From assembly GCA_000002435.2 (NCBI GenBank), contig CM018793.1: DNA of 64,000 nucleotides; one strand, written 5' to 3'. The stretch is from Giardia intestinalis. Lineage: Eukaryota. A model generated the notes under the pieces. The model had not been told where the DNA came from. It saw only the letters and a list, made by a program, of their open reading frames with translations, and ran no database searches. The translations under genes and the position numbers were made by a program. Shown piece by piece: positions 37,528 through 39,736 of this stretch (position 1 is the first letter of the stretch; each line of letters opens with the position of its first letter).

Positions 37528-38158
37528 GCTATCCGATGGTTGGCGGAGATTTATTATTAATTTTCCCAACGTAGAGTATAGAAACGCCGAGAGTCAGATA
37601 GTCATATGCTATTGTGCCATAGCCGTGCTGCCTTTAAACTCGAGCAGGTAGTGAGATATCTCCACGCCATTCTAGCCTCACTAGTGTTTCTGCGCATCTT
37701 ACCAACAAATTTCTGATGCCTGCACATTGAAATAGAGTGCAATCGAATTTTTGTACCAGAGGCCTAACTGGTCAAATTGCCGCATGCCCGCTTAAACGGC
37801 TAATCCCACCTTCTGACGCATTTCTTGACACCTTCCCAAGAAGTCGAAATAGTTTGTTTACAGACAATCTGTTGCACACTTCAGAACGTTACTTTTTGCT
37901 TCTTGCTCTTTTTGTCGGTACAGTTCCATTGAAGATGGAGTACTCATTGCTGTCCATTGTGCTCTTTGACTGCGACATATGGGCTTGTGTAGTGCCGTCA
38001 TAGAGCGCCCTAAGCTCTGCTAAAAGTTAGAGCAGGTCTTTTGAGATATGAGCCATGGTCACGGCTGGTCCGTGTTCTAATCCGTCAAGTGCAGCTTTAT
38101 CTTCATCAGTAGGCATAGCTAAGCCCCGAAAGTGCAGCCCGCGGGCAGCCCCGGGCCG

Positions 38159-38173
38159 GGATAAAAATAAAGA
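38159..38173 (+). promoter_or_regulatory. AT-rich initiator-like element GGATAAAAATAAAGA, 8 nt upstream of the FOR20-like ATG, flanked by CCCGGGCC direct repeats
   Basis: It is the only AT-rich stretch in an otherwise >70% GC segment, positioned like Giardia AT-rich initiators. Confidence 0.4.
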
Positions 38174-38181
38174 CCCGGGCC

Positions 38182-38577
38182 ATGGACGAGATCAAGAGCA
38201 TCATCCTCCAGAACATGAAGCAGCGGGGCGAGCTCGCGGTCCTGCAGGCGAAGGTCCGCGAGTCCGTCCTCCGCGCGCTCGAGGGCCACAAGGCCAGCCC
38301 GCCCCCGCAGCCCGAGGGCGAGACGTACGTGATCCTGGAGCTCATCACGGAGTTCTTCCGCTTCATGGGCCTCCACTCCACCGCCGGCACCCTCGAGGTC
38401 GAGGCGGGGATCCCGACGCTCCCCGTCAGCCGGGAGTACCTGATCCGGACCCTCGGCCTGTCGCCCGACGCGATCAACAACGAGATCCCCCTCCTCTACC
38501 ACATGCTCGCGTTCTGCCAGCAGTTCGGGGGCGTCTCCGCCGTCGTCCTGGAGGAGGACCAGGGGGACCGCCTGTAA
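38182..38577 (+). CDS. FOPNL: FOR20/FOPNL-like (FOP N-terminal LisH/PLL dimerisation domain) centriole/basal-body protein, 131 aa, GC3 ~100%
   Basis: MDEIKSIILQNMKQRGELAVLQAKVRESVLRALE vs human FOPNL VAELKAVLKDTLEKKGVLGHLKARIRAEVFNALD. TYVILELITEFFRF vs NLLINELIREYLEF. NNEIPLLYHMLAFCQQ vs DNTIPLLYGILAHFLR. ATG preceded by GGATAAAAATAAAGA. Confidence 0.6.
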   Translation: MDEIKSIILQNMKQRGELAVLQAKVRESVLRALEGHKASPPPQPEGETYVILELITEFFRFMGLHSTAGTLEVEAGIPTLPVSREYLIRTLGLSPDAINNEIPLLYHMLAFCQQFGGVSAVVLEEDQGDRL

Positions 38578-38730
38578 ACGCCTTCCCCGAATAATTTCGG
38601 GCAGTCCTTGCCCGCGGAGGGCACTTAAGGCTCCGGGGCCCGGGGCAGAGTCGGCCCTCCCAGAGCCCGCCGACGCCCCCGAGCGCCAGCCCGGCGCAGG
38701 GGCCCGGCCACACTCATTTATTAAACAGCG

Positions 38731-39171
38731 ATGGCCAGCGCCGAGCAGGCGTACCTGGAGCTCGCCGACGCCCTCGCCCGGTGCGCGGCCGGCCCGGGGG
38801 GCCTCGGGGAGGTGCGCGGGCTGCTGCACCTGCTCCGCCGCTGCACGGACGCCGGCTACCCGAACGTCCCGCCCCCGGAGCGCCTCGGGCACGAGTTCGC
38901 GCGCGACGCCCTGTCCGTGCTCGCCGGGCTCCGGGAGGCGCCGGCCCCGCCCCCGTCCCCGGACGCCCCGCAGCAGCGCCCGATGCCGCCCTCCCCCGGG
39001 GCCCGCTGGCAGGCGCTCTTCCCGGCCGGGACCGCCCTGGGCCTCTCGCCCTTCGAGGCCGACGCGCTCATCCGCCGCCGCCGGGCCCAGGTCTGCGAGC
39101 TCGACGCCGAGGTCGCCCTGCTCTCGCGCCGCGTCGCCCGCCTCCGGGGCCTCCCCGTCCGCATGCACTGA
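38731..39171 (+). CDS. orphan Pro/Ala/Arg-rich protein with a C-terminal coiled-coil (146 aa), GC3 ~100%
   Basis: ATG preceded by CATTTATTAAACAG. Same extreme codon bias as its neighbour. No family recognised. Confidence 0.4.
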   Translation: MASAEQAYLELADALARCAAGPGGLGEVRGLLHLLRRCTDAGYPNVPPPERLGHEFARDALSVLAGLREAPAPPPSPDAPQQRPMPPSPGARWQALFPAGTALGLSPFEADALIRRRRAQVCELDAEVALLSRRVARLRGLPVRMH

Positions 39172-39736
39172 GGCATGCGTGCAGGGCGGCGGTGGACCCG
39201 CGTAAGCATTTGTTGAAGCACACCGGATGACTCAGTGGAAGGGGATCTCGCTGGGATAATCCGTTTTAGCAGGCCGACAAAGCAACTATTAGCTTGATTT
39301 ACTCCTCTAAGACAGATAGGCCCTTGCATTGCCTGTCCCCATCAGCGATATTAGCCTTGTTCTGTGCACTGCGTAGGATGCATACAGCTCTGTGCCGTAT
39401 ACTAGTAAAGTAGGGTGCGTCTCTCTATTGGCATAGTATGTCAATCTCTTGCATTATTAGATGGTCCATATAGCTCTATCCACTACTTACAACTAGCAGA
39501 ATAGACAGCTTGCTACTCTGCGCAAGCATCTGGGGACGTATGCAGGCACGCCATGTGGCACCACGTCCTTTGTGGAGCGCTGGAGGACTACACAGGTGAG
39601 GGTCTACCATCAAGGTGCGGACACGTTGCTTCCTGACATGGAAGGTCAATGAGGCTATCCAGATGGTCCAGCAATGGTAGAAGGCTAGCAGATGTGATCG
39701 TATTGGCCATCAGCACTGTCACTAACACCAACACGC

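What the first reader, a model, noticed from the sequence alone, without database searches (positions are those of the whole stretch)
38118..39200. Extreme-GC island (~72% GC; every codon ends in G/C) encoding a FOR20/FOPNL-like basal-body protein plus an orphan ORF, inside the Cys-rich surface-protein locus
Base composition shifts abruptly from the ~49% GC background to >70% GC at ~38118 and back at ~39200. I read both ORFs codon by codon: all 131 + 146 sense codons end in G or C. Synonymous families still use two codons each (CTC/CTG, CGC/CGG, GGC/GGG), so this is not a one-codon-per-residue design. The 5' leader, the 150-bp spacer and the 3' flank are also GC-rich, unlike the AT-rich intergenic DNA elsewhere in the window. 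ORF1 has clear similarity to the FOP N-terminal dimerisation (LisH + PLL) domain of FOR20/FOPNL, a centriolar-satellite/basal-body protein needed for ciliogenesis. ORF2 has no recognisable relatives. Two explanations are possible. (a) A native, very highly expressed basal-body gene pair at the far end of Giardia's GC3 codon-bias spectrum; this is supported by the Giardia-style AT-rich initiators immediately 5' of both ATGs (GGATAAAAATAAAGA; CATTTATTAAACAG). (b) A recently acquired or chimeric foreign segment. Either way it is the most anomalous 1 kb in the window. The 349-aa antisense ORF spanning it is a by-product of stop-codon depletion in GC-rich DNA.
Basis: partly seen in the sequence, partly recalled or inferred. 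Interest (0 to 1): 0.8.

Follow-up and report, generated by a model that had tools for sequence, protein, structure and literature searches.

The report
GC-extreme inverted-duplicate gene cassette in Giardia
The 1.07-kb, 74%-GC island is a native Giardia cassette (a FOP-family basal-body-type gene, a snoRNA and a diplomonad-specific gene) present as two identical inverted copies, and its extreme GC content most likely comes from GC-biased gene conversion between those copies, not from foreign origin or ordinary codon bias.

Summary
Window 38121-39194 is 73.6% GC against 49% for the window, and all 277 sense codons of both ORFs end in G or C.

- **ORF1** passes Pfam's threshold for FOP_dimer and has orthologues in G. 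muris and Hexamita.
- **ORF2** is not an orphan. It has relatives in G. muris (adjacent to the ORF1 orthologue) and in Spironucleus.
- **Foreign origin** is excluded.

Assemblage E also carries two copies, and assemblage B contigs show two alternative flanks on each side. Copies are identical within a genome but differ by 7% (A-E) and 18% (A-B), which indicates concerted evolution. The GC steps coincide with the repeat ends. The G. muris-like pair, apparently single-copy, has ordinary GC (52%/49%).

GC enrichment affected third positions, synonymous first positions, ORF2's amino acids and the snoRNA-bearing spacer. AT-rich promoter elements were spared.

Best explanation: GC-biased gene conversion between the arms (about 0.6). 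Translational selection is the main rival. Interest is moderate.

The parts
38121..39194 (.). 1,074-bp repeat unit, which is the GC island (73.6% GC). It is one arm of an inverted duplication; the other arm lies just upstream of the window start.
   Evidence: Independent assemblage-A short-read contigs are 100% identical (L017 99.9%) and break or diverge exactly at 38121/38122 and 39194, with two alternative left and two alternative right flanks. Both encoded proteins carry two WB accessions each: 722/723 and 746/747. GC steps occur at both ends.
38160..38173 (+). AT-rich initiator-like element GATAAAAATAAAGA, 8 nt upstream of the ORF1 ATG.
   Evidence: Read directly. (G/T)ATAAAAATAAAGA is conserved in A1, A2, E, B and lineage X within otherwise variable GC-rich DNA. 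Promoter function is inferred from what is known of Giardia promoters, not tested.
38182..38577 (+). ORF1, 131 aa, FOP-family (TOF/LisH/PLL-type, FOPNL-like) protein. Annotated as GL50803_00134441/2; UniProt A8BS53 'Centrosomal protein 43'.
   Evidence: Pfam FOP_dimer E = 3.6e-8, 34 bits against cut-off 29.4. Exact-match accessions. 86% identical to the G. muris-like orthologue and 53% to Hexamita inflata. GC3 100%.
38568..38714 (+). H/ACA-box snoRNA GlsR24 (Rfam RF02487). It fills the 'spacer' and overlaps the last 10 nt of ORF1.
   Evidence: cmscan 166.6 bits against gathering score 100, E = 1.6e-43, full length 1-147/147. Also found in the same position in L010, L030 (E) and L020 (B), and at 97.6 bits in L011. 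Not detected in the G. muris-like locus.
38715..38726 (+). AT-rich element CATTTATTAAAC directly upstream of the ORF2 ATG, abutting the snoRNA 3' end.
   Evidence: Read directly. Identical in A1, A2, L010, B and X; CATTCACTAAAT in the G. muris-like locus.
38731..39171 (+). ORF2, 146 aa, diplomonad-specific all-alpha protein (GL50803_00116712/3). The most GC-rich coding sequence reported for Giardia.
   Evidence: Exact-match accessions KAE8304722.1 and KAE8304747.1. Relatives in G. muris (GMRT_16149) and Spironucleus salmonicida (SS50377_23004), plus 5 unnamed relatives. No Pfam, PDB or fold match. AF2 model pLDDT 81, five helices. 81.05% GC without the stop and GC3 of 146/147 = 99.32% equal the published maxima.
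38119..39168 (-). 349-aa antisense ORF: not a gene, a by-product of GC3 = 100% on the sense strand.
   Evidence: No Pfam hit. Its codon position 1 complements sense position 3, so T-initial codons occur only in the leader, the spacer and the ORF1 stop codon.
35002..37527 (-). Left neighbour: high cysteine membrane protein group 2 (KAE8304745.1), ordinary GC (49%).
   Evidence: This flank is syntenic in P15 (L030, 84.7% identity).
39737..41362 (+). Right neighbour: variant-specific surface protein with internal tandem repeats, GC 59%.
   Evidence: Pfam VSP E = 1.1e-133. C-terminal CRGKA and repeated ~37-aa units are visible in the translation.

Best explanation
**What it is.** The island is a native three-gene cassette of Giardia duodenalis. 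Its parts are a small FOP-family (FOPNL-like) protein gene, the H/ACA snoRNA GlsR24 and a diplomonad-specific alpha-helical protein gene.

**How it is arranged.** In G. duodenalis the cassette is a sharply bounded unit of about 1.07 kb. In WB it is present twice in inverted orientation, with the 5' ends facing inward and 22 annotated genes between the copies. Both copies sit among VSP/HCMP genes. Within a genome the two copies stay identical while the cassette diverges between assemblages. This means the copies repeatedly convert one another (concerted evolution).

**Why it is so GC-rich (inferred).** I infer that repair of the conversion heteroduplexes is GC-biased. Over the time since the split from the G. 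muris lineage, every weakly constrained A/T site inside the converted tract has then been driven to G/C. The affected classes are:
- third codon positions;
- synonymous first positions (Arg AGR to CGN);
- replaceable amino acids of ORF2, which moved towards Gly/Ala/Arg/Pro.

The snoRNA-bearing spacer is GC-rich too, but that is ambiguous evidence, because a guide RNA that pairs with 75%-GC rRNA is expected to be GC-rich anyway.

Strongly selected sites resisted. These are ORF1's amino-acid sequence and the two AT-rich promoter/initiator elements.

**Status of each step.**
- Shown: native origin, two-copy inverted structure, concerted evolution, coincidence of the GC boundaries with the repeat boundaries, and the lineage-specific GC rise across site classes.
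- Inferred: that biased gene conversion, and not selection or another local mutation bias, causes the rise.
For: 1. **Native origin.** The ORF1-ORF2 pair is adjacent in a G. muris-like contig (L009) next to pyruvate kinase. It clusters with consecutive G. muris accessions TNJ30743/44/45. ORF1 has a Hexamita orthologue and ORF2 a Spironucleus orthologue.
2. **Two inverted copies in WB.** ORF2 and ORF1 are KAE8304722/723 in one copy, and ORF1 and ORF2 are 746/747 in the other. Window genes carry 729-751 in order.
3. **Exact unit.** A-type contigs break or change flank at 38121 and 39194. B-type contigs do the same at L020 1210 and 2338, with 2 left x 2 right flanks. Two P15 contigs with different flanks are 100% identical over 474 bp from the same left boundary.
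4. **Concerted evolution.** Paralogues are 100% identical. Island identity between lineages is 98.6% (A1-A2), 92.7% (A-E) and 81.8% (A-B).
5. **GC steps at the unit ends.** 45% to 80% and 72% to 53%.
6. **Lineage-specific rise across site classes, G. muris-like against WB.**
   - ORF1 GC3 rises from 0.58 to 1.00 with GC1 slightly up (0.61 to 0.68) and GC2 unchanged.
   - ORF2 GC1 0.64 to 0.85, GC2 0.40 to 0.58, GC3 0.45 to 1.00.
   - ORF2 Gly/Ala/Arg/Pro (GARP) content 28% to 50%.
   - Spacer 40% to 70%.
   - At ORF1 codons with the same amino acid: 43 third positions A/T in the G. muris-like sequence and G/C in WB, none the reverse.
7. **Codon choice is not that of the highly expressed gene in the window.** There are no AGR Arg codons (35% in the ribosomal-protein gene). 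CGG makes up 28% of CGN (0% there). NCG share is 44% (27% there).
8. **AT-rich elements persist inside GC-rich DNA in all assemblages**.
9. **Literature.**
   - Genes in AI/AII gene-conversion tracts are GC-enriched: median 0.541 against 0.488 (PMC12669663).
   - Giardia rDNA, another concertedly evolving repeat, is about 75% GC including its spacers, and gBGC has been proposed for it (PMC10123126).
10. **Within the window** two other segments above 57% GC are Cys-rich genes with near-identical WB paralogues (HCMP group 4, tenascin-like). The fourth, the VSP at 39737, was not in the collection, so its paralogues are unknown. The single-accession HCMP group 2 gene is 49% GC. This is suggestive only.
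Against: - The link between duplication and GC rests on one locus and one contrast (G. duodenalis against the G. muris lineage). Cause and effect are not separated.
- GC-biased mismatch repair has never been shown directly in Giardia.
- I could not read the second WB copy itself. Its identity and orientation are inferred from identical protein accessions, accession order and collapsed short-read contigs.
- Single-copy status in G. muris is inferred from single accessions.
- The spacer's GC richness can be explained independently, because a snoRNA must pair with 75%-GC rRNA.
- Giardia does prefer G/C-ending codons in highly expressed genes (PMC8393687), so translational selection may contribute to GC3. 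Expression of these genes was not assessed.
- Polarisation of substitutions relies on one good outgroup.
Confidence: 0.6

Rival explanations
1. Translational or expression-linked selection: a very highly expressed gene pair at the far end of Giardia's G/C-ending codon preference.
For: Giardia CAI correlates with GC3s (r = 0.90), and highly expressed genes prefer G/C-ending codons (PMC8393687). The ribosomal-protein gene has the highest GC3 among the window's other long ORFs, 0.79. The AT-rich initiators are conserved.
Against: - Codon selection cannot change ORF2's GC1 and GC2 or its amino-acid make-up.
- It does not explain the GC steps coinciding with the repeat boundaries.
- The codon set differs from that of the ribosomal-protein gene: no AGR, and many CGG/NCG/GGG.
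- The G. muris-like orthologues, which presumably have the same function, have GC3 of 0.58 and 0.45.
- No other window gene exceeds GC3 0.79.
Confidence: 0.15
2. A local GC-biased mutational or structural environment unrelated to conversion between the two copies. Examples are a recombination or repair hotspot tied to the VSP/HCMP neighbourhood, or selection for GC-rich DNA/RNA structure around the snoRNA gene.
For: Both copies sit among VSP/HCMP genes, which are themselves 58-60% GC. The snoRNA needs GC-rich guide sequences for 75%-GC rRNA. The region is a synteny breakpoint between assemblages.
Against: The flanks immediately outside the unit are 45-53% GC, and the intergenic DNA next to the other copy is 37-46% GC. 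A regional effect should not stop at the repeat ends. The snoRNA covers only 147 of 1,074 bp.
Confidence: 0.15
3. Recently acquired foreign DNA, a contaminant or an assembly chimera.
For: Abrupt compositional discontinuity. Short-read contigs break at the edges.
Against: - Orthologues of both ORFs occur only in diplomonads, with conserved adjacency in G. muris.
- A Giardia-specific snoRNA lies inside the island.
- The Giardia-type AT-rich initiators are conserved.
- Contigs from independent samples and assemblies cross both junctions: L004/L005 on the left, L003 on the right, P15 L030 on the left with 10 kb of synteny.
- The contig breaks are explained by the two-copy repeat.
Confidence: 0.02

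Closest known systems
Arm-to-arm gene conversion in large inverted repeats (primate Y-chromosome palindromes; plastid inverted repeats). Cited from my own knowledge, not checked here.
   Same: Two inverted copies are kept identical within a genome while diverging between lineages. GC content is elevated in the converted arms relative to the flanks, which is attributed to GC-biased conversion.
   Different: The arms here are only 1.07 kb. They carry a complete three-gene cassette and reach a far more extreme composition (GC3 100%). The organism is a tetraploid, binucleate protist with little or no meiotic sex.
Giardia duodenalis rDNA repeat (about 75% GC, spacers included), for which gBGC has been proposed (PMC10123126)
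   Same: Same organism. Both are multi-copy sequences evolving in concert, both have about 74-75% GC including non-coding parts, and the G. muris counterpart of an rRNA segment is less GC-rich (ES7 62% against 100%, PMC9561286).
   Different: rDNA is a subtelomeric tandem array of RNA genes. This is a two-copy inverted repeat carrying protein-coding genes at an internal chromosomal position, so the bias can be read at synonymous and replacement sites.
FOPNL/FOR20 (CEP20) and the FOP/OFD1 family of TOF-LisH-PLL centriolar proteins
   Same: ORF1 matches Pfam FOP_dimer above threshold. It is short like FOPNL and carries the IPLLY (PLL) motif.
   Different: 131 aa, with no C-terminal extension. 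No experimental localisation is known to me. No phylogeny was made to separate FOPNL from FOP. The AF2 model was too poor (pLDDT 51) for a fold comparison.
Rfam RF02487 GlsR24, a Giardia H/ACA snoRNA
   Same: Full-length match far above the gathering score.
   Different: None. This is the family's own locus. The points added here are its position inside the two-copy cassette, overlapping the ORF1 stop, and its conservation in assemblages A, B and E.
Inverted duplicated VSP pairs in the WB genome (PMC7000408)
   Same: Short inverted duplications are common in WB (6.9% of the genome is duplicated; 19 VSP pairs are head-to-head or tail-to-tail). This cassette lies among VSP/HCMP genes.
   Different: The duplicated unit here contains no VSP. 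The arms are 22 genes apart rather than adjacent. The duplication is shared with assemblage E and probably B.

Membership tests
FOP family (Pfam PF09398 FOP_dimer; TOF-LisH-PLL proteins such as FOPNL/FOR20) | Significant profile match to the FOP N-terminal dimerisation domain | tested here: met
   E = 3.6e-8, 34.0 bits against curated cut-off 29.4, residues 49-109. All diplomonad relatives carry the same precomputed domain.
FOP family (Pfam PF09398 FOP_dimer; TOF-LisH-PLL proteins such as FOPNL/FOR20) | LisH motif and PLL motif in order after an N-terminal TOF helix | tested here: inconclusive
   IPLLY (PLL) is invariant in the diplomonad alignment. The LisH model match is weak (LisH_WDR26, E = 0.12).
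FOP family (Pfam PF09398 FOP_dimer; TOF-LisH-PLL proteins such as FOPNL/FOR20) | Fold of the FOP dimerisation domain | tested here: inconclusive
   AF2 model pLDDT 50.9, unusable. No PDB sequence hit with the single sequence or the profile.
FOP family (Pfam PF09398 FOP_dimer; TOF-LisH-PLL proteins such as FOPNL/FOR20) | Localisation at basal bodies or centriolar satellites and a role in ciliogenesis | not testable with these tools
   No paper in the library mentions the gene ids.
H/ACA snoRNA GlsR24 (Rfam RF02487) | Covariance-model score at or above the gathering threshold over the full model | tested here: met
   166.6 bits against 100, model positions 1-147/147. 144-169 bits in B, E and L010; 97.6 bits in L011.
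H/ACA snoRNA GlsR24 (Rfam RF02487) | Expression and guidance of rRNA pseudouridylation | not testable with these tools
   No paper in the library mentions GlsR24.
Concertedly evolving inverted repeat shaped by GC-biased gene conversion | Two or more copies in one genome with defined common boundaries | tested here: met
   WB: two accessions per protein in inverted order. P15: two contigs with different flanks. Contig breaks at 38121 and 39194.
Concertedly evolving inverted repeat shaped by GC-biased gene conversion | Paralogues within a genome more alike than orthologues between lineages | tested here: met
   100% within P15 over 474 bp, and 100% for collapsed A1 contigs. Between lineages: 98.6% (A1-A2), 92.7% (A-E), 81.8% (A-B).
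Concertedly evolving inverted repeat shaped by GC-biased gene conversion | GC enrichment confined to the converted tract | tested here: met
   Steps of 45% to 80% and 72% to 53% at the unit ends. Maximum-likelihood segmentation puts the right edge at 39203; the left edge is blurred by the AT-rich promoter.
Concertedly evolving inverted repeat shaped by GC-biased gene conversion | A/T-to-G/C bias at all weakly constrained site classes relative to an outgroup | tested here: met
   43 A/T-to-G/C against 0 G/C-to-A/T at synonymous third positions of ORF1. ORF2's GC1, GC2 and GARP content rise. The spacer goes from 40% to 70%. Only one close outgroup was available.
Concertedly evolving inverted repeat shaped by GC-biased gene conversion | Direct evidence of GC-biased heteroduplex repair, or of A/T-to-G/C alleles favoured in polymorphism | not testable with these tools
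   Needs population data or experiments. The only indirect support is the GC enrichment of AI/AII conversion tracts (PMC12669663).
Horizontally acquired or contaminant segment | No orthologues in related lineages; best matches outside the clade | tested here: not met
   All relatives of both ORFs that could be placed are diplomonads; several metagenome and read-archive relatives are unnamed. Gene adjacency is conserved in G. muris.
Translationally selected highly expressed gene | Codon set matches that of known highly expressed genes, with non-coding and replacement sites unaffected | tested here: not met
   Arg AGR share 0% against 35%; CGG 28% against 0% of CGN; NCG 44% against 27% in the ribosomal-protein gene. 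ORF2's amino-acid composition shifted. Expression level itself was not tested.

The most novel reading that the evidence does not exclude
The two 1,074-bp GC-saturated arms may act as a recombination switch. Exchange between them would flip the segment that lies between them: 22 genes and at least 38 kb, including HCMP and tenascin-like surface-protein genes. Both orientation isomers would then exist among, or even within, isolates. Contig L001 joins the window's left flank to the other copy's right flank. Contig L003 joins the other copy's left flank to the window's right flank. These are exactly the two junctions that such an inversion predicts. If this is right, the cassette would give a measurable read-out of ongoing homologous recombination and GC-biased repair in a eukaryote long argued to be asexual.
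Probability: 0.2. Interest if true: 0.7.

Novelty: new member of a known kind. Interest (0 to 1): 0.5.

Why it matters
Published codon-usage surveys of Giardia report a GC maximum of 81.1% and a GC3 maximum of 99.32% without identifying or explaining them. ORF2 reproduces both numbers exactly, so this cassette is very probably the compositional extreme of the genome.

The analysis ties that extreme to a two-copy inverted repeat that evolves in concert. This gives a clean, small natural experiment for GC-biased gene conversion in Giardia:
- it contains a strongly constrained gene, a weakly constrained gene, an RNA gene and two promoters side by side;
- the G. muris-like orthologous pair, with ordinary GC, serves as a control.

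It supports the idea, so far only suggested for the 75%-GC rDNA, that conversion bias is strong in this lineage. That bears on the debate about recombination in an apparently asexual parasite.

There are also practical consequences:
- the cassette breaks short-read assemblies;
- it marks a synteny breakpoint between assemblages;
- it shows that ORF2's odd Ala/Pro/Arg/Gly-rich sequence is largely a compositional artefact, so the G. muris or Spironucleus orthologues are better queries for function.

Tried and rejected
- **Foreign or contaminant origin.** Rejected on the diplomonad orthologues and on contigs that span the junctions.
- **Mobile element.** No terminal inverted or direct repeats at 38121/39194 beyond chance matches in GC-rich DNA, and no transposase.
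- **Antisense 349-aa ORF as a gene.** No Pfam hit, and it is explained arithmetically.
- **ORF1 structure.** AF2 pLDDT 51, not used for fold search. PDB sequence searches with the single sequence and the profile found nothing meaningful.
- **ORF2 function.** Pfam hits are only sub-threshold coiled-coil noise. PDB profile search and Foldseek against the PDB with a pLDDT-81 model gave no significant match.
- **Literature.** Searches for the gene ids and for GlsR24 returned nothing. Supplementary gene lists of PMC12669663 are not held.
- **Bacterial-type promoter/terminator scan.** Irrelevant for a eukaryote.
- **The GC-rich 335-aa ORF upstream of the other copy in DH (L002).** It has no Pfam match and no counterpart in P15, so I did not treat it as a gene.

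
Full report
**1. The observation**

Window 38118-39200 is 73.6% GC, against 49.0% for the whole 64-kb window. ORF1 (38182-38577, 131 aa) and ORF2 (38731-39171, 146 aa) have GC3 = 100%, with no exception among 277 sense codons.

No other long ORF in the window exceeds GC3 0.79; that value belongs to a ribosomal-protein gene. A 1,074-bp sliding window peaks here at 0.737. Elsewhere the mean is 0.485, the SD 0.036 and the maximum 0.615, giving z = 6.9.

The edges are abrupt. GC goes from 45% to 80% across 38120/38121 and from 72% to 53% across 39194/39195.

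The neighbours are a high-cysteine membrane protein and a VSP.

ORF2 without its stop codon is 81.05% GC. With the stop counted, its GC3 is 146/147 = 99.32%. These equal the maxima (81.1% and 99.32%) reported for 5,968 Giardia coding sequences in PMC8393687. ORF2 is therefore very probably the compositional extreme of the whole genome. This is an inference from the numerical match.

**2. The genes**

*ORF1.* It matches Pfam FOP_dimer above the curated threshold (34.0 against 29.4 bits). It is annotated GL50803_00134441/2, and UniProt calls it 'Centrosomal protein 43'. It is 86% identical to the orthologue in a G. muris-like contig and 53% identical to a Hexamita inflata protein. It aligns colinearly over residues 3-110 with human FOPNL (35% identity).

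*ORF2.* It is annotated GL50803_00116712/3 and is not an orphan. A profile search of 1.84 billion representatives found eight proteins. They include G. muris GMRT_16149 and Spironucleus salmonicida SS50377_23004. Shared motifs are YP..P..R.GHEF..D and W..FP.GT.LDLSPF, followed by a long basic helix. It has no Pfam, PDB or fold match. A model with pLDDT 81 is all-alpha.

*The G. muris pair.* The two orthologues and pyruvate kinase have consecutive accessions, TNJ30743/44/45. The same order is seen in contig L009.

*The 'spacer'.* Positions 38568-38714 are a full-length match to the Giardia H/ACA snoRNA GlsR24. The score is 166.6 bits against a gathering score of 100. It is the only Rfam hit in the window. 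The snoRNA is found at the same place in assemblages B and E and in L010. It scores 97.6 bits, just below the gathering score, in L011, and it is not detected in the G. muris-like locus.

**3. The island is a two-copy inverted repeat**

*WB accession order.* Each protein has two accessions in the WB chromosome-scale assembly.

| Genes | WB accessions |
|---|---|
| ORF2, ORF1 (the other copy) | KAE8304722, 723 |
| Window genes, in order along the window | KAE8304729 to 745 |
| ORF1, ORF2 (window copy) | KAE8304746, 747 |
| GTP-binding protein, Ran | KAE8304749, 751 |

The second copy is therefore inverted, with the 5' ends facing inward. It is 22 annotated genes away, just upstream of the window start. 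The spacing is at least 38 kb; this is an inference from accession order.

*Assemblage A contigs.* Short-read contigs from independent assemblage-A samples are 100% identical to the window (L017 99.9%). They stop or switch to a different flank at exactly 38121/38122 and 39194, giving two left and two right flanks.

*Assemblage E (P15).* Two contigs of one assembly have different left flanks: an HCMP flank syntenic with the window, and a VSP flank. They are 100% identical over 474 bp, starting at the same left boundary.

*Assemblage B.* The unit is 1,129 bp (L020 1210-2338). Contigs show two left and two right flanks in all four combinations.

*Divergence between lineages.* The unit is 98.6% identical between A1 and A2, 92.7% between A and E, and 81.8% between A and B. 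Copies that are identical within genomes but diverged between genomes, with a shared boundary, indicate concerted evolution by gene conversion.

**4. The GC enrichment is lineage-specific and hits every weakly constrained site class**

| Feature | G. muris-like pair | WB |
|---|---|---|
| ORF1 GC / GC3 | 52% / 0.58 | 68% / 1.00 |
| ORF2 GC / GC3 | 49% / 0.45 | 81% / 1.00 |
| ORF2 GC1 | 0.64 | 0.85 |
| ORF2 GC2 | 0.40 | 0.58 |
| ORF2 Gly/Ala/Arg/Pro | 28% | 50% |
| ORF2 Phe/Tyr/Met/Ile/Asn/Lys | 16% | 7% |
| Spacer GC | 40% | 70% |

- In ORF1 the protein is conserved. GC2 is unchanged and GC1 rises only slightly (0.61 to 0.68).
- At ORF1 codons with the same amino acid, 43 third positions are A/T in the G. 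muris-like sequence and G/C in WB. None go the other way.
- Another Giardia species (L007) also has ordinary GC3, 0.60.
- All Arg codons are CGN. CGG, NCG and GGG codons are frequent. The window's ribosomal-protein gene uses 35% AGR, no CGG and fewer NCG codons.
- Two AT-rich elements survive unchanged in A1, A2, E, B and lineage X within otherwise variable GC-rich DNA. They are (G/T)ATAAAAATAAAGA before ORF1 and CATTTATTAAAC before ORF2.

**5. Interpretation**

- **Foreign origin is excluded.**
- **Translational selection** may add to GC3. It cannot explain the replacement-site shift, the codon set, the ordinary GC of the orthologues, or the coincidence of the GC steps with the repeat ends.
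- **Best explanation:** GC-biased gene conversion during the repeated homogenisation of the two arms. Purifying selection protects ORF1's protein sequence and the AT-rich promoters.
- **Literature that fits:**
  - Genes in AI/AII conversion tracts are GC-enriched (PMC12669663).
  - Giardia rDNA, also a concertedly evolving repeat, is about 75% GC including its spacers, and gBGC has been proposed for it (PMC10123126).
  - An rRNA segment is less GC-rich in G. muris (PMC9561286).
  - Short inverted duplications are common in WB (PMC7000408).
- **Caveats:**
  - This is one locus.
  - The bias itself is inferred.
  - The spacer's GC can be attributed to the snoRNA.
  - The second WB copy was not read directly.
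  - Expression was not assessed.

I put about 0.6 on gBGC as the main cause. Native origin, the two-copy structure and concerted evolution are much more secure.

**6. Loose ends**

- Contig L001 joins the window's left flank to the other copy's right flank. Contig L003 (A2-like) joins the other copy's left flank to the window's right flank. These are the junctions expected if the 22-gene segment between the arms is inverted. Chimeric assembly paths through a 1-kb repeat would look the same.
- In assemblage B the GTP-binding-protein/Ran block abuts the cassette's 5' side instead of its 3' side. Recombination between the arms alone cannot produce this arrangement.

**7. Verdict**

The anomaly is real and probably the extreme of the genome, but its components are known annotated genes. 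The process that best explains it is of a known kind: concerted evolution with GC-biased conversion. It counts as a new member of that kind, with moderate interest. It is a compact test case for recombination-associated GC bias in Giardia.

Noticed in passing
window 38568-38714 (+): The H/ACA snoRNA GlsR24 (Rfam RF02487) fills the ORF1-ORF2 spacer. It overlaps the last 10 nt of ORF1 and ends one base before the AT-rich element of ORF2. It is the only Rfam hit in the 64-kb window.
   Followed up: yes
window 39737-41362 (+): The VSP gene downstream of the island carries about six tandem copies of a ~37-aa unit (NCGVANCAQCVSGDNTKCETCSPGFDL...). The repeats create long spurious ORFs on the opposite strand (39685-40488, 39773-40711).
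   Followed up: no
window 1-2000, 33001-34500 and 39500-41500: The other GC-rich stretches of the window (57-63% GC; GC3 0.66-0.73) are Cys-rich surface-protein genes. Two of them (HCMP group 4 and tenascin-like) have paralogues at 90% identity or more elsewhere in WB. The single-accession HCMP group 2 gene (35002-37527) is 49% GC. This suggests a general link between paralogue conversion and GC.
   Followed up: partly
L021 (assemblage B, BAH15c1) 5005-10402 compared with window 38182-46221: In assemblage B the GTP-binding-protein / 607-aa / Ran block lies on the 5' side of the cassette and is inverted relative to it. In A it lies on the 3' side behind a VSP. The cassette marks a synteny breakpoint between assemblages.
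   Followed up: partly
L023 1940-2050 and L025 1922-2055 compared with L020 544-667: In assemblage B, a ~110-135-nt stretch about 600 nt downstream of the cassette matches, inverted, a stretch about 600 nt upstream of it (73-77% identity). These may be flanking inverted repeats able to flip the cassette itself.
   Followed up: no
L007 2700-3160 (unnamed Giardia species, SRR31929897): The ORF1 orthologue has a stop codon just upstream of the conserved N-terminus and no in-frame ATG there. ORF2 is not adjacent; a DEAD_2 helicase gene follows instead. GC3 is ordinary (0.60).
   Followed up: no
L008 6001-6387 (Hexamita inflata): The ORF1 orthologue translated with the standard stop codons shows seven in-frame stops at positions where the annotated Hexamita protein reads Q. 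This fits the reassignment of TAA/TAG to glutamine known in Hexamita. The locus is 33% GC.
   Followed up: no
L002 37-1044 (assemblage A2, DH), upstream of the other copy: A 335-aa ORF, 64% GC, has no Pfam match and no counterpart in P15. An AT-rich gap (37-42% GC) separates it from the cassette. It is probably not a conserved gene.
   Followed up: partly
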